Source of the DNA: Chiloscyllium plagiosum
Taxonomy: Eukaryota
DNA: 64,000 nt
NCBI RefSeq assembly: GCF_004010195.1
Contig: NC_057751.1
Location: forward strand, 9,933,457 to 9,997,456
Direction: 5' to 3'
In this document: positions 3,687 through 16,180 of the stretch, in pieces
How the letters are laid out: each line of letters begins with the position of its first letter
How positions within the stretch are numbered: position 1 is the first letter of the stretch
The notes under the pieces: generated by a model
Seen by the model: only the letters and a program-made list of their open reading frames with translations
Database searches by the model: none
What the model was told of the DNA's origin: nothing
Made by a program: the position numbers and the translations under genes

Positions 3687-3829
3687 GGTAGAAACTGTTA
3701 TGAAACCAGCCGGTGCGTGTGTTCAGGCTTCTGATGCCAGTCAAAAAAGAGAATTCCTGGGAAAGATTTGGGTGGGGAATAACAAAATGAAGCAGCTGGA
3801 GAACGGACCACACACACCTGGATCTGGAG

Positions 3830-4900
3830 GCGCCCGAGGAAAAGGTCTAAATGTCTCAGATGACGCAGATCGGGGGAAAAAACGCCCGAAAACACGGGCG
3901 TAAAATTTTTAAACTCCGTCAAATAGCGGGTGACGGAATCGGTCGCAAACAGCACATGGAGGAAGATCCTCAGGGCTGGGGAGAAAAACGAAGATGGAAT
4001 CCATGAAATCGCCCCTCAACAAAATGGCGGCCTTGAAAAATTCGTCGTTACCCCGCAACAAGATGGCGTCCGCGCCCTTGTTGTTGTGGTCGCCGCGCGC
4101 GAGGCGTGACGGTTCGTCACGTGCCAGCGAGCCCGCCGCTTGGCGGGAACCTCCCAACGGAAATCCATCCCGAGCGCGAGCCGGGAAAAGCAAAGCTGCA
4201 GCAAGGAGAAGACGAGCAACCCAATAAAATTAACCGTGCCAGGCGGTGTCTGAGAGCTGAGAAAGGAGAAAGGGGAGAGGGGTGGGGTATTTATCCTTCC
4301 ATCGCAGCCGTTCATCCACGTTGTTATGTTTTCCGAGCGGGCGGCGCAGCAGGAGCCGACTCTGCTGTCGGCCCCGCTCCCGGCCCAGCCGGGCCCGACT
4401 TTCCCCCGGGTCACCGCCGGCTCCTACAACAACCGCTCCGGCTGCTTCAGGCTGGGCGAGCGCTCCTTCCAGCGGCAGTACGCGCACATCTACGCCGCCC
4501 GGTTGATGCAGGTGCGCCCGTTGGTGGAGGAGAGCGCCAGAAAGAAGTGGGGTGAGTATTTCCCCCAGCTCCACACACAGCCGCCAGAGATGGGGGGGAC
4601 GGGTCAGGCGCCAACCGGCGGTGGGTGGATGGATGTTGGTTGAGCGAGGAATGGAATGGCATTGTCCTGAACCGCGGTGAAACACTCGGTCTGTGCGGTG
4701 CGTTGATTTTATTTCAGGATTGAATCCGCTGCTCTCCCCAGCGGCTCCATCAGGCTGAGTGTTGCTGTTCACTCGGGCGCCGCATGATTCTCCTGTTGTG
4801 TTCTGCAGGGGCCGATGTGCCGGTCAAGAAGCTGTGTGAGCTGCAGGTCGGCCAGAAATGTTGTGTGGTTGGCACCCTCTTCAAGCACATGGAGTTGAAA
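3830..4900 (+). promoter_or_regulatory. CpG island / POLD2 promoter region
   Basis: Sharp rise in CpG and GC against a CpG-depleted background. Contains YY1-like AAAATGGCGGC (4021-4031) and AAGATGGCGTC (4060-4070), E-box GTCACGTG (4116-4123) and E2F-like TTGGCGGGAA (4140-4149). A probable acceptor ttatccttccatcgcag ends at 4307, upstream of ATG 4326. Confidence 0.8.
4326..4551 (+). CDS. POLD2: DNA polymerase delta subunit 2, coding exon 1
   Basis: MFSERAAQ...FRLGERSFQRQYAHIYAARL...KKW matches the POLD2 N-terminus. Donor gtgagt at 4552; 226 nt. Confidence 0.96.
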
Positions 4901-4930
4901 CCATCCATCCTGCGGGAAATCAGTGAGGAG
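4809..4930 (+). CDS. POLD2: POLD2 coding exon 2
   Basis: ttctgcag acceptor; (G)[40 protein letters not shown]; donor gtagga; 122 nt. Confidence 0.96.
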
Positions 4931-6209
4931 GTAGGAGTCCTGCTCTGGGACCCGTCTCAGTATGAGCCTCTTGAGGACGTATCCTTCACCGTCACCCTAG
5001 TATTTGGCCGTCGCTCTCAGCCCAGCGAAAGGTCTAGTACTTTTAATCAGCATGTCCCGATTCCTTTGCGCGGTGAAGCATCCACCATTAGAACATAACG
5101 AATGAGAATTCGTGCACCGTTACTCCAACTGGGGTGATGCTCAAAGGTATGGACTCGTGCAAACCATTGCCCTGTTCATATTTGCAGAGTATACAGGAGT
5201 CTTATGTGTTACTACATTAGATTGGTTTGCAGTGCACTGCCATTCATTTAGATTGCTGATAATGGTTGTGGTCTTGTCTATGCTTTCTGGTCTGCACAAC
5301 TTTACTCGAAAGTTGAACAATAAAACACTGACCTGTAAGAAATAAGAATATGACTCAAGTTGTGACTAACATTTACTCAACACCTTGAGCCTGTCTGCCA
5401 CTGAATGGGACCATGGCAGATCTGACTTGGCTCAAGTCTACCTCTCTGCCCTTCCTCCATCTCTTGATTTCCCCACATTGTGAAGAGTCTTACCGATCTA
5501 AGCATTAAATAGTGTTAAGGACTCTCCCCCACATCTCTCTGTGGCAAGGAGTTCCAAAGTCACTGAATACTTTGAAAGAAGAAATACTTCTTCACTTCAA
5601 ACTTAAACCCCTCTGTTTCTCGCCCTTAGCCTGAGAGTCTGCCTTCTGGTCTGAAACTCCCTTCTGAGGAGAAGCATTCTCTCAGAATTCAGAATGTCAA
5701 GCTCCTTCAGAATCCTGTATGTTTCAGTGAGATCACATCATTCTTCTCAACTCCAGTAGGCAGAGCTTTTGCTCATAAGATTCTTTCTTCCTTGTTTCTC
5801 TTTACCTTGCCACACGACTTGCGTTCCCACCCCTCTACTGTTCGAGTTTAAATCTTCCCCAACCACAGGAATAAATATTGCCCTTGGACGTCAGTCTTGG
5901 TCTGCTCAACTGTAACCTGTCCAGTTTGTACTGGTCCCACCTCTCCCAGAACCAGCCCCAATATTCCAGACATCTGAGACCCCCCTCCCCCGCCAAGTTT
6001 TCTGGCCATGTATTCAACTGTTATATCTTTGTTTATACTTTGACTGCCATGTGGGTAACTCCCTTTGAGTTGGAGCCATAGAAATGCATGTCTGTTTCCT
6101 TTCCTGTTGATCTATAACAATTGCATTCACACTCTTTTTATATTCCTCCCCTGTGCAGCCACGTCGACTGTGGTGCAATGAATTTACTGGTTTCCCCTGA
6201 GAGGCCGTT

Positions 6210-6850
6210 CTCTCCAAAAGCATCCAAAGCACTATATATGCCAGACGACTGCGACCACTAGGACTTATAACAGCACACAAACCAACAGCCACTCTCATAC
6301 AACAACTCACCAGAAAGAAGGACCCGATACCCAGCATGAGCAAAACTAATGTAGTGTACAAAATCCCATGCACGGACTGCACAAAACACTATATAGGACA
6401 AACAGGAAGACAGCTAACGATCCGCATCCACGAACATCAACTAGCCACGAAACGACACGACCAGCTATCCCTAGTAGCCACACACGCAGACGACAAGCAA
6501 CATGAATTTGACTGGGATAACACTACCATTATAGGGCAAGCCAAACAAAAAACAGCCAGGGAATTCCTAGAAGCATGGCACTCATCCACAAACTCCATCA
6601 ACAAACACATCGACCTGGACCGAATATACCGGCCACTATAGCGGACAGCTGAAACTGACAACCAGAAGCGGCAGGGACAGGCCACTATAAATGCCGGAGG
6701 AAACACCACAGAAGTGCTTCACAGGAGGCTCCCAAGCACTGAGGATGTCACCTAGACAGGGGACGAAACGTTTGCAACAAAAACTTCCAGCTCGGCGAAC
6801 AGAACCACAGCAACGAGCACCCGAACTACAAATCTTCTCACAAACTTTGA
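6210..6850 (+). mobile_element. Penelope-like element 3' portion with GIY-YIG endonuclease ORF remnant
   Basis: ORF 6336-6641 NVVYKIPCTDCTKHYIGQTGRQLTIRIHEH...REFLEAWH is a typical PLE GIY-YIG domain, followed by a hammerhead-like motif at 6736-6775. Confidence 0.88.
6736..6775 (+). ncRNA. Minimal hammerhead ribozyme motif (Penelope-associated)
   Basis: GCA-CTGAGGA-t-GTCACCT/agac/AGGGGAC-GAAA-CGTT-TGC. It has the conserved CUGANGA and GAAA core, stem II, palindromic AACGUU stem III and a 3-bp stem I (GCA/UGC). Confidence 0.65.
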
Positions 6851-8419
6851 GTACTATATATGTTTTGCACAGTAAGAGCCACGGGGGTTTCCTGCACTCC
6901 CAGCTTTGACAAAGGGTCAGTTAGACTCGAAACATCAGCTCTTTTCTCTCCTTACAGATGCTGCCAGACCTTGTCCTTTTATTTGTCCTGGTAGTCACTC
7001 ATTCCATTTCTGCCGATGGAGTCTCAGCCTGTGATGTGCCAACTTATATGTACTGCTGTCCATGGGACTCGCAGCTTCATGGCTGCTCCAATGTCCCCAG
7101 CTCCCAAATGGTTTACTTCATATTCTTAGATGGTGATTCCTGGTTCTGGACTCCTCCATCAATGGGAACTTCCTGACAGTGTAATAAAGGGGAGTACAAA
7201 TAAGGTACACCCTCTTCTCTCGATTGGGAAAATTACCTTAAAGAATGGACACCTGATGTGGTGGGAAGGTCTCTACTTGGCAAGTTGGACTGACACAAAT
7301 ATTACAGGAATTGATATTACAGGAACATGCCCATGGCTGGTTTTGAAATTGTAATTGAGAAACATGACACTGTTTGTGCACTTTCCCAGCCTGAGCACCT
7401 CCTTCTGTCGCTTCCCAATTCTTCAACATGACCTGTCCCTCCATCTTTCTTTGTGTCACCTGCAAACTTAGCAGCCGAGCCCTCAGTTACTTTGTGCTGA
7501 TTGTAGTCCCAGCACAGATCCCTGCGATACTCCACTAGTAACTGGCTGCCATCCTGAAAAGATCCCTTTATCCCCACTTTCTGCCTTCTGCCAGTTAACC
7601 AAAAGTCTTTGCATGCCAGTACGTTGCCTGTAATATCTGAGCAATTTCTCATGTTGTTCAATAGATGCCAGTGCTGTAACTGTACTGGAACAACTTGGTG
7701 AGAGGAACGGTAAGTTCTGGAGCACAAGTCTTCCATTCTGTTGCTGGAATGTTGTCGCGGCCCACAGCCTATCAGGATCCAGCGTCTCCAATTGTTTCTT
7801 GATATACTGTGGAGTGTATCGAAAAGGCTGAAGACTGATATCTAAATGCTGGGAACTACTAGAGGAGGCCAAGATGGATCATCCACACAAGGCATTTCTG
7901 GCTGAATTTTGCTGTGAAAGCTTCAGTCCTAACTTTTACCTGATGTGCTGGGCTCTTCCATCGTTGACGATGGGGATATTTGTGGAGCTGTCTCCTCCAG
8001 CGAGTTCTTCAATCATCCACCATCTTTCTTGTCTGGATGTGGCAGGACTGCACAGCTGAGATCTGATCTGTTGGTTGTGAGATGCTTAGTTCTGTCTATT
8101 ACTTGCTGCCTATTCTGTTTGGCATGCAAGTAGTCCTGCACTGTTGCTTTAAGTTGACAAGTCATCTTCAGTAAAACTTGGTGCTGCTTCTGGCATGCCC
8201 TCTGCACTCTCCATGGAAACAAAGTTGATCCCCTGAATTGATGGTAATGGTTGAGTGGGGAATATGCTGTGCCATAAACTTACAGGCTGTTTTGGGGTAC
8301 AATTCTGCTGCTGTTGATGGCCCTCAGCATCTCAAGGATGCCCAGTCTTGAATTGCTAGATTTGTTCTCAGTCTTTCCCATTTGGCACAGTGTGCCAAAC
8401 AACATGGCGGTTAATCTCA

Positions 8420-8845
8420 GTGTACAAGCAGAACAAAAACAAAAGACCCTATTCCCATCATATGTAAGACTAACATAGTTTACAAGATTCCATGCAAAGA
8501 CTGCACTCAGCACGATAGGGGACAGGCAAACAACTTCATCCATGAACACCCAGCTAGCGTCTAAATGCCACGACCAGCTGTCTCTAGTAGCCATACTCAA
8601 AGATGACAAGGACCACAAATTCAACTGGGACAATGCAATGATCACAGGGCAAGTTAAACAAAGATCTAAAGCATGGATTCCATCAAGAAACACACAGACT
8701 TAGTCCCAGTATACCGGCCACAACCACGAATAGCAGGAACAGAAACAAATAAATTCCAGAAGATATTGGACAGCAGCGCTTCACTGCAAGCTCCAAAGCA
8801 CTGAAGATGTCACCAAGACAGGGGATGAAATGTCTGCAAGTCATA
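8420..8845 (+). mobile_element. Degenerate Penelope-like element fragment (same family as 6210-6850)
   Basis: Alignable to 6320-6780 (cacgaccagctgtctctagtagccatac, actgggacaa, gcatgg) and ends with a hammerhead-like motif at 8798-8837. Confidence 0.75.
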
Positions 8846-9289
8846 CCCACAACTATAATGTCCAGAGTCCATCTCTTGCTGGTGGTATACGACACATTCA
8901 GGGAAGGTGATGGTCATAGCTGGGGCATTATCTGTAAAGTATAATTCTTTGAATGTGACTGTCTCAGCATGATGCTTGACTTGTCTGTGAGACAGCTCCC
9001 AATTATGGCAAGAGCCCTCAGATGTTAGTAAGGAGGACTTTGCAGGCTTGACAGGGCTGTTTTGTGCCATTGTCTTTTCTGGTGCTAGGTCAATGCCAAG
9101 TAATTTTGTCTAGTTTCATTTCTTTGTGACTTTGGTACAACTGAATGGCTTGCAAGACTATTTCAAAGGGCTGTTGAGAGTCAACTACACCATTGTGGGT
9201 CTGGAGTGACATCTCGGCCGGACCAGGTGGTAATGGCAGATTTCCTTTCCTGAAGGACATCCGTGAATCAGATGGGCTTTTATGACACT

Positions 9290-9930
9290 TGACCGTGGTC
9301 ATCGACAAGAAACTCAACTGGACTCACTACATAAACACTGGCTACGAGAACAGGTCAGAAGTTATGAATACTGTGATGAGAAACTGAACTCCTAAAAGCC
9401 TGTCTGCCAACTCCAAGGCACAGGTCAGGAATATGATGGAATACTTCCCATTCTCCTGGATGAGTGCAGCTCCAACAGTATTTGAGAAGCTTGACACCAT
9501 TAAGAACAAAGCAGCCTGCTTCGTTGGCATTATATCCACAAGCAATCACTCCTTCCACCACCGATGTTCAGTATTAACAGTCTGTACGATCTACAAGCTG
9601 CACATGAGAAATTCGCTCAAGATCCTCACACACCTTCCAAGCCCATGACCACTTTCATCTAGAAGGCCAAGGGCAGCAAATACCTGAGAATGCCACAACC
9701 AATAAGTTCCCTTTCGAACCTCTCCCCATTCTAATTGCAAGTATATTGCTGTTCCTTCATTGTTGCTGGGTCAAAATCTTGGAATTCCTACCTTAATGGC
9801 ATTTCGGGTCAATCTGAAGCAGGCAGTCTGCAGCGCTTCAAGAAGGCGGCACATCATCACCGTCTCAAGGGTAGCTAGGGATAGGCAATGAAGGCCGGCC
9901 AGCCAGCAATGCGGCCTTCTCACAAATGAA
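9290..9930 (+). mobile_element. LINE (CR1/L2 clade) 3' fragment
   Basis: Degenerate RT C-terminus (ORF track MEYFPFSWMSAAPT...KLDTIKNKAAC) plus tail. Homologous copies at about 31650-32020 and 49420-49900. Confidence 0.65.
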
Positions 9931-11359
9931 TAAATCTTTTTTTTTCAAAAAGGCACCATGGGCTCTTAGCTTATTTAGCAGTTTCATGTGCATCACCTCC
10001 AAGGCCTTCTGGAAATCCAAATAAATGACAGCCACTGGCTCTCCTTTATCTAACTTGCTTGGTGCCTCATAGAATTCCAACAGATGATTACGCTTGACTG
10101 TTCTTGACACAGATGTGCTGACAGCCTTATTTTCCAGTGCACTTTCAGGTGCTCCTAAATCTCATACTTCAAGGCCTCCAAAATGTTAACGTCGACTGAG
10201 GTCAGGCCAACTGACCAATAATTTTGTCTTTTGCATCCCTCCCTTTAAACAAGAGTGTTACATTGGCCATTTTCCAGTCATCTGGGACCCTTCCTGACAC
10301 CAGTGATCCCTGAAAGATCACCAATAGTGTCTCTACAATCTCCTTCACTCTTTCCTTAAGAACTCTGGAATGTTGGTTGTCTGGTCCAGGTAGTTAATCC
10401 ACATTTAGATCTTTCAGCTTCCCCACTTGCTCTCTCCCATACGCTTCAAATTCCCTGAAACCTGACATGGATATTCAAGAGAAGAACTACTTACCAATGA
10501 GAGAAAAGGAGGGACAGATCACCAGCTCTGTGTTTTGTGTTATGGACCACACCAAAACCCTTTGATATGTATCAAGGAGATAACCTAGGCTCTAACTTGT
10601 TCTTATTTAAAGGCAAATGAAATGTTCTATGTTGCAGTAGTAATTCAATAGCCACCTGTGTGGAATCGCAGGAGATGGGTAAGATAGTAAATGATTATTT
10701 TGTGTCAGTATTGACTCTGGAGAACACTATGGAAACTACAGGACTTGGAAAAATAAATATGATATTTTGAAAAGTGTCCGTATTCCCGAAGAGGAGGTGC
10801 TGGACATGTTAAAATGCAGAAAGGTGGATAAATCCCAGAGGTCTCATGAGGTGTATCCCAAAATGAAGTGGCATGTTAAGGAAGGGATTTCTCGTTGGAT
10901 CATGTGGAGTCTAGGGGGAAGATAGTCAATTGGAAATGAAACTGGCTGAAAGATGGGAGACATGATGGTGGAGGGGTTTGTTTCGAACTGGAGATCTGTG
11001 ACCAGCAATATGCCATAAGGATCAGTGCTGGATCCACTTCTTTTTGATATTTATGTTAATGATTTGGACATGAATTTAGGAGGAATCATAGATGTGCAGC
11101 ATGGAAACAGACCCTTTGGCACAACTCATCCATGCCAACCAGATAGCCGAAATTAATCTAGTCCCATTTGCCAGCACTTGGCCCATGTCCCTGGAAACCC
11201 TTCCTATTTATATACCCATCCAGATGCCTTTTAAATGTTGTAATTGTACCAGCCTCCATCACTTCCTCTGGAAGCTCATTCCATGCACGTACCACCCTCT
11301 ACGTGAAAAAGCTGCCCCTTGGATTCCTTTTAAATCTTTTCTCCCTTGTCCTGCTTCCA

Positions 11360-14300
11360 TCCTCAGTCAAAGCAAAGCACTCAGAGACATGGTATAGTTT
11401 GATCTCTTTCATCTTTATTCCGGGCCCTGAGTGTGAGAGAATAATTAATAAAGAGTAAACCATCTGCTGTTACACAGTGATTAACTGACTTGAAATAATG
11501 AATGTTTTTCCACCTTGTTAACCCATTACACTTACCTCCAGCACCCCATTGTTACCGAAGTTCTTAGCAGATCTGAATCATGCTCAGCTGAACATCTTGT
11601 TTCACAAAACTCAACTTTTTCCCTGCCTGCTTGTACCCTACACATATTCTCATACCCTCCTTTTATCATTTCATGATAACCAATGGCCTTACCAGCTTTC
11701 ATAAGACGCTGACAGCCAATACTTAAGCAAGTTACTGACACACTGCATATAGTGATTGTAACAACAAAAATTACTAGTCCGTTTCAGTAAATAGAATTTT
11801 AAGAATCCTCCCATGTGGAAGAATAATTCACCAGTAAAGTTGTTAAATCTACACTCCTTAGTGACCACTCCATCCCCTCCAACTCGAGTGGAAACAAGTC
11901 AGTTCTCCCAAATTTCCTTCAGTAAAGTTCAACCTGAAAACAAAATTCAGTCTGTCCTTGTGCATCACTCCACAGAGAAATCCGAATTCTTGAATAATGG
12001 TAGTTAAATACTTAACAAAACTGAAGAGACTTTCATCCTTCTGGAGATATTTCAGATGGAGGATATCAGCACATTTGAGTGTGCAGTGCAGCAGCTGCAA
12101 ACTGCAGGCTAGGTGAATGCAGCATTCTTTGCTACATCTGCTCCAGCTCTGGTGTTGAAATGTAACAAAGCCAACTGGCTGTTGTCATGTTAGTTTGATT
12201 AGTGAACCTTCATATCCCTTAAATGATTGAAAGACAAGGTAAAACCCGCATGGTTTAATATCCATAGGAAGGCCACTGACAAAAATTGTACAGACCTCCT
12301 CTTCACTGTTGTTAGCTTTTTTTTCATGGTCATGACTGGGGAGCTGACTGAATCCGTTGGATCAGGTTGCGGAGGGGTAGACGGTGCTCTGAAGGTGTGC
12401 TTTACCTGCAAATGGGGAAATTCTACAGAAGTATCTTTGCACTTCCTCTCTCATTCCCTCCTTATCAAGGTGGTTAACAGTATAAAGACAGTCGCACATT
12501 TAACTACACTAAATTGCGTCTGCCTGTTTTAACATTCTTTGAATTCTTGAAGTCTGTTACTCTGTTCACTATTTATAGCATCTATTTTTGTACAATCAAT
12601 AAACTTCTAAATTCTACTGCCAAAACAATTCAGTCAATTGTAAACAACAATCAGTGCTCCTAAAATCAAACCCTCGGGTGCCTCCATTTAGATTACTCAA
12701 AAGTTATTTTCTTTTAACAAATTGATACTTGGCTAATGTGAACGCTGTCAGCATAAGTATTTCAGAAGTCTGGAACAGAAAGAAAACATGAAAACATTTA
12801 GCAATTAAAGAGGCGGTTTCAGTTAAGCTTTAAATCTTAAACACTTGTGGGAAACAAATGCTGAATATTTTAAAGTATGTTTTCCAAATGAAATTTCCCA
12901 AGTATGAATAGTCGAACTTCCAGTGACAACTTCAGTAGAGATCAGCATCTTTGAATTTGCAATATGAAGGGGGCCAATGAAGTCTTAACAATAATGAACA
13001 GAACTGAACCAATTCAGCCTCCAGTTCTGATATTCTCTCAAATCTTAAAACATAAAATTGAAAATGCACTGTTCTTTTTGTGAACACTCTGCATTAAAAA
13101 CATAGCAGCAAAGATTATAATACAATACTCTCATCTGGTGAAAGCAGGACCACTGACCCAACCGTTCGTTTTTAAACAGGCATTGTAGAATTGCTAACAC
13201 ATCAGGAGCTCAAGGCACTTAATCAGTTTGTTTTAAGGATACAAGTTTGATAGTTTTAAAAAGGACATAATATTGTACACTTAGAATGTAAAAACAAAAT
13301 CTTCCCCATTACAAAGCCAGTAAAACACATTGAATTAAGATCCAGTATTTTCTGAACCAGTATTTTAACAAACCAAAATATTTAAATATCACATACTCTC
13401 AGCATGGCACAATTTGTGCTGAAACTTTCCTTTTTCAGTGCAAGTATTAGTACAACCTTAATTTCAGCATTTTCTTGTTTTATTTTCCTTCTTCTCACTG
13501 AAATTATACTGACAAAAAAAAGAGAAGGCCCTCTCAGCAGACCACATGGTAGCACAATCCAAGACAACACCCCCCACCCCACCCCCGCCAGAACAAAGAT
13601 TCGCAGAGAATCTCAAATTTCACTCCTCGGAGGACTTAAACCTCAAATCAACCCACCCAGTAGATTTGAACCCCAGTACTGCGCAGAGGATTCTAACCTC
13701 AACCGAACCCACCCAGGGGACTCAAACCCCAGTATCACTTCGAGGACTTGAACCTCAATCACCACCCCCTCCCCGTGCATCGCAGAGGACACAAACCTCT
13801 GCTAGCTAACACACTTGTGAAACTATGTCTCTCAGCTGAACTAATTACCTTTCGAAGATTCTGTCGAATAGAGAGCTATCGAGCGAGGGGGCTGTCTCTC
13901 GCACACAAGAATATCGAGAGGGGCCAAGTTTTAAAATCTTACCTTGAAGGCCCATCAGTCTCACGGCACCGATGTTCAAGGTGGTCACTTGTGCTGTCAG
14001 TCTGGATCCTGCCAACTACACCAATATTTAGTCACCCCATTGCCCCCCCTCCCCCCCCCCCAAAAGTTTGACAACAGTTGTTTTACATCCTTCATTATTT
14101 CGAGCCCTGCGGGAAGAGAGAATGATTGCCCAGTTCTCTGGAACAGCACTTTCTAAATAAAGTATATAGTCATTTTACAGGGAGAAGCATCCAGATAAGG
14201 CAACATACATATTAATTAGGTGACTATTACAATAAGCGAGTATCAGTCAGAAAAAAATTAGCCATCTGCTGTTTCACAATGAATTGACTTCACATAAATG

Positions 14301-14537
14301 AATACTTTTCACCTTGTTAAACTAACCTCACATATGGAATGCTACCTCATCTTGTTAAATGGCTGTACATAATGAATGCTTTTTCATTTGTTAACCCATT
14401 ACCCTTGCCTCCAGCACCCCCATTGTTAACTGCAAGTTCTTATCTGATCTGAGTCATGCTCAGCTGAATCTCTTCTTTCACAAAACTCAGAACTTAACTC
14501 TTTCCCTGCCTGCTTGTATCCTATACGCATTCTGACA
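11360..14537 (-). mobile_element. Degenerate ERV-like LTR element, antisense in POLD2 intron
   Basis: Diverged direct repeats at about 11360-11654 and 14025-14537. On the - strand: TGTCAGAAT start at 14537, PBS TGGTGTAGTTGGCAGGAT (14023-14006, 16/18 to the tRNA-Ser 3' end), PPT AAAAGGAGGG (11664-11655), AATAAA in the 3' LTR (11419-11414) and env-like remnants. Confidence 0.8.
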
Positions 14538-16180
14538 GGGATATGTCAAGTAAATCTTTTCTAAACAGCTTCCAATGCTGTTCTGTTTACCAAATGAGAC
14601 CAAAGCGATACATTCTTCATATGTGATCTCATGTTGACATCTGCTGTAAAAATTTGCAACGTACAGTTTACTTCTAGTTGTCTTCCTGATTACTTGCTTT
14701 ATCTGCTTACCAACGTTTTGCGATTCATGTACCGGGTCACCCACATCTTTGCGTAATACGAAGTTCTGCACGTGCTCGCCATTGAATTTATATATAGCTT
14801 TTCTTGTTTGCTTGCTTCACATATCTATATCCTTCTAGTGCTTTCCATCTTAGCTTAACCAGTGTTCTCATAGCTACCTTGGCATTATTGGCAAATCTAA
14901 TACCATGTATTTAGTCCCTGTTGCCAAGTTATTTATGCACATTGCAAACTGAAATTTGTGGTGTTCTTGTCTGTGACAAGCCATTAGTTAAAGCCTACCA
15001 ACAGAGAAAGACCATCCGATTTCTGTTTGCCTTGATAAAGGACTGATTTGTTCAAATGTTCAACATCTCTGTTCTTAGCTTGTGTAACTTTGACTTGGTA
15101 CCTTTCCAAATTGTTTTGAGAAATCCAAGTAAGTTGTGGCTGCAGGTTCCCCTTGAACAACTTTGCTTACTTTCTCAGAGAACTCTTAACAGGTTAGTTG
15201 AACAAATTGAACAATCCCATGGTCATGCTACTGATAACATTGTGATGTCATCATGTTTTAACCTAAATAAAGAATCTTATGTATGCTGCATGTTTCACTA
15301 ACTAGCCTATAGCTTCCTGTTTTCTGTCTTTGTCTTTTATTGAACAAAGGTGTTGCATTAGCTATTTTCCAGTTCACTTGGACCTTTCCAAAATCTGTGG
15401 AATTGTTGGAAAATTATTAGCCCTGCATTAGCCACTTGTTGAAAAAACGTATGGTATAGGTAATCTGGTACTGAGGACTTGTCAAATTAGGTCTCATTGT
15501 TCTTGTACTTTTTCTCCAGTGACTCATTGTTTTAGGTAGCTCAGTGCCTGTTAATTTTCAAGGATCTGCTGGAACTTTCCTGAAGACACACAAAAGATGC
15601 ATGTTCATCCCCTCTGCCTTTTCCTTGTTATCTGTTTAGTTCTCCAGACTCTCTCTCTCGAGATGAAACAGTTTTTCACCTTTGTACTTGGAGAAACTTG
15701 ATCTGTTTTTAATATTACCATATAGTTTTCTCTTATTATCTAAATTGTCCCAATTTATTAGCTACTCTTTGCTGTTTGCTAAAATATGATCTCCTGAGCT
15801 ACCTTTTTGCAGTTATGTTTGGGCTAACACTTTTCCTATTCATACTTTGCTTTTGTCTCACCATTTAGATTTGACTTCATCAGTTAATCAGGTTTTTCTT
15901 TGTTTCTTATTCAAGTTGGACTTTTAAAATGTGATGAGACTCAAATTCTAGTCCGAGGTGCATTGGAGCAAGTGACTTGGCTCACCTGTACTCCATTCTG
16001 TGAAGAAAAAATCTTTTTTGATACTGGGAATTGCTTTTAATTGTTTCATGTGTTTTTGAATTTAAACTGATTCAAGCTGAGTTGAATGACTGCACCCCTT
16101 TGTCACTTCTGACTTGAATACTCTGTGTACTGAGGGTGATTAATTGTTGTTCCTAATGTCATAAATCTTGTTGCTTTTAG

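What the first reader, a model, noticed from the sequence alone, without database searches (positions are those of the whole stretch)
11360..14537. Cryptic tRNA-Ser-primed endogenous-retrovirus-like provirus hidden antisense in the 11-kb POLD2 intron
Seen on the minus strand, in retroviral order: 5' LTR (14537-14025), PBS TGGTGTAGTTGGCAGGAT, splice donor AAG/GTAAGA (GT at 13942-13941), structured leader, AT-rich interior, acceptor TTTCCCCATTTGCAG (12420-12406), env-like pieces, PPT AAAAGGAGGG and a diverged 3' LTR with AATAAA. Established: vertebrate tRNA-Ser(AGA/TGA) ends ATCCTGCCGACTACGCCA, so both PBS mismatches are CpG-type transitions. No gag or pol is recognisable in the 2.3-kb interior. 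Inference: an old non-autonomous or internally deleted ERV from a cartilaginous fish, a group whose retroviruses are sparsely described. No long ORF reveals it.
Basis: partly seen in the sequence, partly recalled or inferred. Interest (0 to 1): 0.72.

Follow-up and report, generated by a model that had tools for sequence, protein, structure and literature searches.

The report
Shark retrovirus relic carrying host RBPMS2
This is a decayed copy of a gene-less shark endogenous retrovirus that carries a spliced, broken copy of the host's RBPMS2 messenger RNA where its envelope gene was, occurs at well over a hundred places in the genome, and likely multiplied with enzymes borrowed from a related virus while the host gene rode along as a likely useless passenger.

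Summary
The provirus is real: two LTRs, a tRNA-Ser(AGA) primer site, a polypurine tract, lying antisense in an 11,250-nt POLD2 intron. The 'env-like pieces' (12359-11806) are an intronless host RBPMS2 mRNA: seven exon pieces spread over 106 kb in the parent gene. The mRNA replaces env between an integrase stub and the env tail, with 8-nt microhomology at the 3' junction. The element belongs to a family (A) seen at 165 distinct places (rough estimate 230-530), with 4-bp target duplications. A sister family (B) has a different LTR, a Ser(GCT) primer site and more of the RBPMS2 frame. Two coding class I ERV lineages supply the parts, so family A is a recombinant. The cargo looks neutral (dN/dS 0.92-1.07 among copies); all 40 A copies examined lack half the RRM. 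Closest known: crocodilian CrocERV31-nectin3 and HERV-K-FAM8A1. It differs in scale, in moving the cargo to a second virus lineage, and in showing no selection. This scan reported the same family twice before, on other copies in this genome.

The parts
14028..14535 (-). 5' LTR, family-A type (about 510 nt)
   Evidence: 2086 first-look candidates in the genome; 70-77% identical, with the leader, to coding lineage-A ERVs L207/L210/L212/L214/L215
14006..14023 (-). Primer binding site for tRNA-Ser(AGA), 16/18 match, two CpG transitions
   Evidence: 19 of 40 A copies hold a site at 15/18 or better
13620..14005 (-). Leader from coding lineage A, with predicted splice donor (GT 13942-13941) and a 56-bp tandem array (13622-13799) whose length varies among copies
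   Evidence: use of the donor not shown
12494..13619 (-). AT-rich non-coding interior of unknown origin; part of it also sits in an env-bearing A-type element without RBPMS2 (L221)
   Evidence: 12 of 12 fetched matches were element copies
12385..12493 (-). Integrase stub from coding lineage B (part of the HHCC region joined to the region after the core), containing the predicted env acceptor 12420-12406
11806..12359 (-). Captured spliced host RBPMS2 mRNA: part of the 5' UTR, codons 1-71, a 255-nt in-frame deletion, the C-terminal codons and about 210 nt of 3' UTR; 3 frameshifts and 4 stops in this copy
   Evidence: RBPMS E 7e-21; seven exon pieces of G000:C40:25026138-25132105
11690..11805 (-). 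Tail of the env TM coding region from lineage B; 8-nt microhomology with the host 3' UTR at the junction
11655..11664 (-). Polypurine tract; the last ~38 nt before the LTR match lineage A best (up to 97%)
11347..11652 (-). 3' LTR, internally deleted (about 305 nt), AATAAA at 11419-11414
4931..16180 (+). Host POLD2 intron (11,250 nt) in which the element lies antisense

Best explanation
The element is a dead copy of a non-autonomous class I endogenous retrovirus that carries a spliced host RBPMS2 mRNA in place of env and likely multiplied by reverse transcription using proteins borrowed from a coding relative, with the host sequence likely a neutral passenger. SHOWN: the mosaic anatomy, the spliced cargo, two families (A, B) that share it, 4-bp target duplications, two coding parent lineages, and neutral decay of the cargo among copies. 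INFERRED steps: (1) A lineage-B retrovirus replicating in the germ line co-packaged RBPMS2 mRNA, and reverse transcriptase switched onto it near the end of pol and back at an 8-nt microhomology in env. (2) The product lost most of gag-pol and spread as family B. (3) A B derivative lost 255 nt of RBPMS2 and recombined with a lineage-A element, gaining LTRs, leader, Ser(AGA) primer site and an AT-rich interior. (4) This family A was copied in trans to hundreds of sites, far outnumbering its coding partner, as env-less ERVs tend to do. (5) The window's copy landed in POLD2 before the split from a related species and has decayed since.
For: Cargo identity and splicing. Homology to coding relatives stops at the acceptor region and resumes about 150 nt before the PPT, and the replaced stretch in relatives is env. 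3' microhomology. No poly(A) tail at the cargo end. TSDs: exact 4 bp in 8 of 16 readable copies, none of 5 or 6 bp. Copy number: 165 distinct places on 51 contigs from three capped hit lists, Chapman estimates 228 and 532; 629 and 584 first-look candidates against 34 for the lineage-A IN-env stretch. Class I: RT-RNase H best matches MLV/XMRV RT (E 4e-38) against foamy Pol E 0.73. Neutral cargo: omega relative to a UTR-based neutral baseline A-A 0.94, B-B 0.98/0.92, A-B 1.07. RRM cut after codon 71 in 40 of 40 A copies, a shared stop at codon 161 in 21 of 40, and 12 of 20 B copies lacking the C-terminal stretch. A is one side of a 97/95 branch, with the host among B rows. Age: LTR-LTR K2P median 0.124 (20 A pairs) and 0.141 (11 B pairs); the LTR-flank junction is bridged by one contig of another organism at about 95.5%.
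Against: Host-versus-B omega is 0.52 (0.38-0.71). I attribute this to selection on the host gene, but the branch from capture to the B burst is confounded with it, so early selection in the virus is not excluded. The family-wide 255-nt deletion is in frame (one chance in three), and 32 of 40 A copies keep the ATG. Half of the readable copies lack an exact TSD. The 5' junction of the capture is unresolved: family B has about 200 nt of unassigned sequence there. The copies sampled were the best-scoring ones, so they are biased to good preservation. The cargo tree is mostly unresolved, its bootstrap had not converged, and the B-before-A order has no formal root test. Trans-mobilisation is inferred from shared ends, not observed.
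Confidence: 0.72

Rival explanations
1. Same origin, but the captured RNA helped the element spread in cis, for example by carrying signals that route or stabilise the genomic RNA in oocytes or germ plasm, so that more copies reached the germ line.
For: Every deletion variant keeps the 5' end and some of the 3' UTR. The cassette crossed into a second virus lineage and both carriers amplified. In zebrafish, rbpms2a transcripts are enriched in the Balbiani body and are maternal (PMC6049948, section on expression read).
Against: The 3' UTR part is no better conserved than the coding part (0.13-0.14 versus 0.08-0.12 from host). Twelve of 20 B copies lost part of it. Loss of env alone is reported to favour spread (PMC6112702 passage). 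There are no shark data on localisation.
Confidence: 0.14
2. The capture was first selected as a protein, like a viral oncogene expressed from the spliced env message, and only later decayed.
For: The cargo is in sense, downstream of the predicted env acceptor, with its own ATG. 8 of 20 B copies examined still span the C-terminal stretch as well. No stop or frameshift is shared by all B copies in the RRM. Host-versus-B omega is 0.52. The crocodilian captures were reported under purifying selection (PMC4299795).
Against: Omega is near 1 within and between families, and net A-B changes are 3.8 nonsynonymous to 0.4 synonymous. The most successful family lacks half the RRM, and zebrafish germline localisation of Rbpms2 needs an intact RNA-binding domain (PMC6049948 abstract).
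Confidence: 0.08
3. A LINE-made RBPMS2 processed pseudogene inserted into an existing provirus, and a later DNA deletion removed env.
For: LINE-like repeats are abundant around these loci, and the 5' junction is unresolved.
Against: No poly(A) or TSD around the cargo; the 3' UTR is cut short at an 8-nt microhomology with env; env is replaced rather than interrupted. These are the marks that Tan et al. give for template switching (PMC5131818 passages).
Confidence: 0.05
4. One reading: a simple internally deleted provirus with env remnants (or its refuters: independent non-LTR repeats, or a Gypsy element).
For: The LTR, PBS, PPT and a short env tail are real.
Against: The interior is host mRNA. 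TSDs and PBS recur across copies. Relatives have class I pol and env.
Confidence: 0.01

Closest known systems
CrocERV31-nectin3 and CrocERV29-KIT-ligand (Chong et al. 2014, PMC4299795; passages and the nectin3 section read)
   Same: An ancient vertebrate ERV that captured a host mRNA; for nectin3 the mRNA replaces env and deletion derivatives exist.
   Different: Six and nine copies there, against at least 165 places here. Those ORFs were reported under purifying selection; here the cargo is neutral and broken. Their consensus names carry the SFV-like label that the paper uses for ERV4; the relatives here are class I. Here the cargo moved to a second LTR/PBS lineage.
HERV-K-FAM8A1 capture and LTR-mediated retroposition (Tan et al. 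2016, PMC5131818; passages read; Jamain et al. 2001 seen only as cited there)
   Same: mRNA replaces internal ORFs between LTRs, microsimilarity at the switch point, no poly(A), and the product can act as a non-autonomous element.
   Different: The passages read describe single loci or a few insertion sites, not a genome-wide burst; the six taxa surveyed include no cartilaginous fish.
Acutely transforming retroviruses with v-onc genes (established knowledge; PMC13297096 passages)
   Same: A helper-dependent genome with a spliced host gene replacing viral genes, placed behind the predicted env acceptor.
   Different: No sign that the protein was selected; the cargo is an RNA-binding protein; the element is fixed in the germ line.
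recKoRV and env-less 'superspreader' ERVs (PMC6112702; passages read)
   Same: Recombination between two retroelements yields a defective mosaic that proliferates.
   Different: recKoRV carries retroelement sequence, not a host mRNA, and is very young.
CmiERV lineages II/III of elephant shark (Han 2015, PMC4422223; first of two parts read)
   Same: Class I-type ERVs of cartilaginous fish.
   Different: No host-gene capture is described in the part read; relationship to these lineages was not tested.

Membership tests
LTR retroelement / provirus | Paired terminal direct repeats with TG...CA ends | tested here: met
   (ends decayed in the window copy, clear in others)
LTR retroelement / provirus | PBS complementary to a host tRNA and a PPT next to the LTRs | tested here: met
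   Ser(AGA) for A; Ser(GCT) for B (9 of 20 copies at 15/18 or better); PPT
LTR retroelement / provirus | Target-site duplication | tested here: met
   8 of 16 readable A copies have an exact 4-bp TSD; 10 of 26 tried were unreadable; not readable at the window copy
Class I (gamma/epsilon-like) ERV | Pol closest to MLV-type RT, RNase H and integrase | tested here: met
   On coding relatives and B remnants; the window keeps only an integrase stub
Class I (gamma/epsilon-like) ERV | env with an immunosuppressive-domain-like heptad and CX6C motif downstream of pol | tested here: met
   Visible in translations of relatives (motif names recalled); Pfam PF22307 E 8e-5, under the curated cut-off; the window keeps only the TM tail
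Epsilonretrovirus-like clade | RT phylogeny grouping with WDSV/WEHV or CmiERV II/III | not tested
   No reference sequences were fetched
Gypsy/Metaviridae | Gypsy-type RT, no retroviral env | tested here: not met
ERV with captured host mRNA | Intronless host transcript inside the LTRs, replacing viral ORFs | tested here: met
ERV with captured host mRNA | Microhomology at the switch points, no poly(A) | tested here: inconclusive
   8 nt at the 3' junction and no poly(A); 5' junction unresolved
v-onc-type transducing retrovirus | Captured ORF intact and under selection during replication | tested here: not met
   omega 0.92-1.07 among copies; RRM cut in 40 of 40 A copies; the earliest branch could not be separated
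v-onc-type transducing retrovirus | Expression from a spliced subgenomic RNA | tested here: inconclusive
   No 13942-12406 joint among those listed (59 joints not shown; shallow sampling)

The most novel reading that the evidence does not exclude
A shark retrovirus captured a germ-plasm mRNA and its RNA, not its protein, acted as a germ-line routing signal. That would explain why the cassette was kept through deletions, jumped to a second virus lineage and took both carriers to hundreds of copies: a transposon hijacking a host RNA localisation code.
Probability: 0.12. Interest if true: 0.85.

Novelty: new variant of a known kind. Interest (0 to 1): 0.5.

Why it matters
Capture of host mRNA by retroviruses is usually seen in short-lived tumour viruses or in a handful of endogenous copies. 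Here it is fixed at hundreds of sites, with the parent gene, the intermediate family and both coding parent lineages still in one genome, so capture, trimming, recombination and burst can be ordered and dated. It also offers a natural test of whether a captured host sequence helps or merely rides an env-less element. In practice it floods this genome with RBPMS2 pseudo-copies, some of which are annotated as 'RBPMS2-like' proteins (P0001, P0006, P0021), which can confuse read mapping and orthology for a gene needed for ovary fate in zebrafish. I found no paper on it: 0 papers hold RBPMS + endogenous retrovirus + pseudogenes + LTR, and the listings show none. The library lacks most subscription journals, and Repbase/Dfam could not be searched.

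Tried and rejected
(1) Pfam on ten stop-to-stop frames of the window gave nothing over the cut-off; the PDB sequence search gave the lead. (2) The top 30 generic integrase loci were not close partners; a query from a B copy found them. (3) Host source for the AT-rich interior: 12 of 12 fetched best matches were element copies, and there was no match in 200 kb around RBPMS2 or in lineage-B relatives; origin unresolved. (4) Expression: no RNA holder listed. Laying reads at 80% showed family-like reads but no donor-acceptor joint among those listed, and one run laid nothing; this is no evidence either way. Summed contig depth was not used as copy number. (5) The chimeric integrase-RBPMS2 frame was found only in proteins named from Chiloscyllium plagiosum among 120 listed of 360 hits; this is weak evidence, since pseudogenes are rarely annotated. 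(6) Dating in years: the rate assumed in PMC4422223 (2.2e-10) would give about 280 My for d = 0.124; I do not trust that assumed rate and give relative ages only. (7) The PDB search with the IN piece gave 0 hits. (8) Rows dropped: 9 of 29 A and 2 of 13 B LTR pairs with short or misplaced alignments were left out of the medians; L067 (near-identical to L054, likely an assembly duplicate) was left out of the dN/dS groups; the count of 165 may include a few such duplicates on small contigs. (9) No supplementary files were read.

Full report
OBSERVATION. The retroviral frame is in the sequence. The two repeats align at 83% over 285 nt, and the 3' copy has internal deletions. Comparison with other copies places the LTRs at about 14535-14028 and 11652-11347. 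The site at 14023-14006 matches 16 of 18 nt of CCA plus the 3' end of tRNA-Ser(AGA) genes found in this genome. Both mismatches are C>T at CpG, and the chance of such a match next to an LTR end is about 2e-7. The element lies antisense in an 11,250-nt POLD2 intron.

The frame at 12361-12155 matches human RBPMS and RBPMS2 (E 7e-21 and 4e-19). The parent gene lies on contig C40; six of its exon matches are 100% identical to, or run on from, a protein named by its source as Chiloscyllium plagiosum RBPMS2, so the host is likely a bamboo shark. Window 12359-11806 aligns, end to end and without introns, to seven exon pieces spread over 106 kb (76-90% identity). It holds part of the 5' UTR, codons 1-71, a 255-nt in-frame deletion, the C-terminus and about 210 nt of 3' UTR, with 3 frameshifts and 4 stops in this copy. 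Only about 11805-11690 is env, and a short integrase stub lies just upstream of the cargo.

A FAMILY, NOT A LOCUS. The cargo stretch gave 629 first-look candidates, with all 40 scored matching nearly the whole query at 82-86% apart from the self hit. The LTR gave 2086 candidates and the AT-rich interior 584. Three capped hit lists give 165 distinct places on 51 contigs; capture-recapture estimates are 228 and 532, rough because the lists are biased. The 39 fetched copies share the layout LTR-PBS-leader with a 56-bp array-interior-cargo-PPT-LTR, many being 5'-truncated or interrupted. Of 26 two-LTR copies tried, 16 had readable ends and 8 of those show an exact 4-bp TSD, none 5 or 6 bp. LTR-LTR K2P has a median of 0.124 for 20 of 29 pairs. 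One contig from a differently labelled organism bridges the 5' LTR and flank at about 95.5% identity, so the insertion likely predates that split, by roughly 2.5-3 times its depth (inference).

A SISTER FAMILY AND TWO CODING PARENTS. A protein search found intronless copies with the whole RRM. Twenty were fetched: they have another LTR, a Ser(GCT) primer site, RNase H and integrase remnants, and the same donor, acceptor and PPT motifs (family B; median K2P 0.141 for 11 of 13 pairs). An integrase piece from one B copy led to coding relatives with gag CCHC, RT (LPQGF, YVDD), RNase H, integrase and env. Their RT-RNase H is closest to MLV/XMRV (E 4e-38; foamy E 0.73) and 50% identical to skate and catshark proteins. 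Their homology to A and B ends at the acceptor region and resumes about 150 nt before the PPT; between these points they carry env. At the 3' junction host 3' UTR and env share 8 nt. A second coding lineage (34 candidates) has family A's LTR, Ser(AGA) PBS and leader. One A-type element has part of the AT-rich interior with env and no RBPMS2. Family A is therefore a mosaic: ends, leader and the last ~38 nt from lineage A; integrase stub, cargo and env tail from lineage B. On the cargo tree A is one side of a 97/95 branch with the host among B rows, but most forks are open and the root was not tested.

IS THE CARGO USED? Pairwise N/S ratios relative to a baseline from the 3' UTR spectrum are 0.94 (A-A), 0.98 and 0.92 (B-B) and 1.07 (A-B). 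All 40 A copies lack the stretch after codon 71, which by established RRM anatomy removes the end of the domain; 21 of 40 share a stop at codon 161; and 12 of 20 B copies lack the C-terminal stretch. Against this, host-versus-B is 0.52 (0.38-0.71), the deletion is in frame, 32 of 40 A copies keep the ATG and 4 of 40 have no stop or frameshift in the deleted frame. Selection on the host gene explains the first point, but early selection in the virus cannot be separated without outgroups. RNA data gave no evidence on splicing or expression.

MECHANISM. Template switching onto a co-packaged germ-line mRNA, loss of coding genes, recombination onto a second lineage's ends, and amplification in trans. 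The anatomy is shown; co-packaging, order of events and trans-mobilisation are inferred. RBPMS2 is a plausible capture because in zebrafish its transcripts are maternal and present in oocytes (PMC6049948, abstract and one section); there are no such data here for sharks.

COMPARISON AND NOVELTY. It works like CrocERV31-nectin3 (env replaced; six copies) and HERV-K-FAM8A1, and fits the LTR-mediated retroposition model. It meets the tests for a class I ERV derivative with captured mRNA and fails the test for a selected v-onc-type cargo. It differs in scale, in the transfer of the cargo between virus lineages, and in the cargo's neutrality. No paper on it turned up (listings only, open-licence library). 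After I had reached this reading, the scan's index showed two earlier unchecked notes on other copies in this genome with the same conclusion; they are not independent support.

VERDICT. Real feature, re-interpreted; a new variant of a known kind; interest 0.5. The boldest reading not excluded is that the captured RNA served as a germ-line routing signal (probability 0.12).

Noticed in passing
L085-L104 (e.g. G000:C30:30.98 Mb, C17:42.30 Mb, C15:47.11 Mb): Family B: same cargo, donor, acceptor and PPT, different LTR, Ser(GCT) PBS, RNase H and integrase remnants; 347 first-look candidates for its leader region, an unknown share of which carry the cargo.
   Followed up: yes
L207, L210, L212, L214, L215 and L175-L194: Two decayed coding class I ERV lineages with Ser primer sites and an identical PPT; I saw no description of them in the papers read.
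   Followed up: partly
L221 (G000:C29:33.64 Mb): A-type element with part of the AT-rich interior but env instead of RBPMS2; a likely donor of family A's 5' half.
   Followed up: partly
L033 oriented 3766-5165; window 13622-13799: The 56-bp leader repeat expands from about 3 units in the window to more than 20 in L033.
   Followed up: no
L044, L051, L053 and window 14536-14541: Four copies have CCTG or CTGG just upstream of the 5' LTR, a possible target preference; sample too small.
   Followed up: no
L188, L189, L181: Further mosaics: an A-type 5' LTR on B-type pol with a different 3' LTR (L188), an inverted family-A piece inside an env-bearing element (L189), and a cargo-bearing copy with more integrase (L181).
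   Followed up: no
P0001, P0006, P0021: Public 'RBPMS2-like' proteins that begin with element-derived residues; likely annotated element copies, not genes.
   Followed up: partly
window 11090-11344: Very high-copy repeat fragment (LINE-like, label recalled) abutting the 3' LTR and hiding its end.
   Followed up: no
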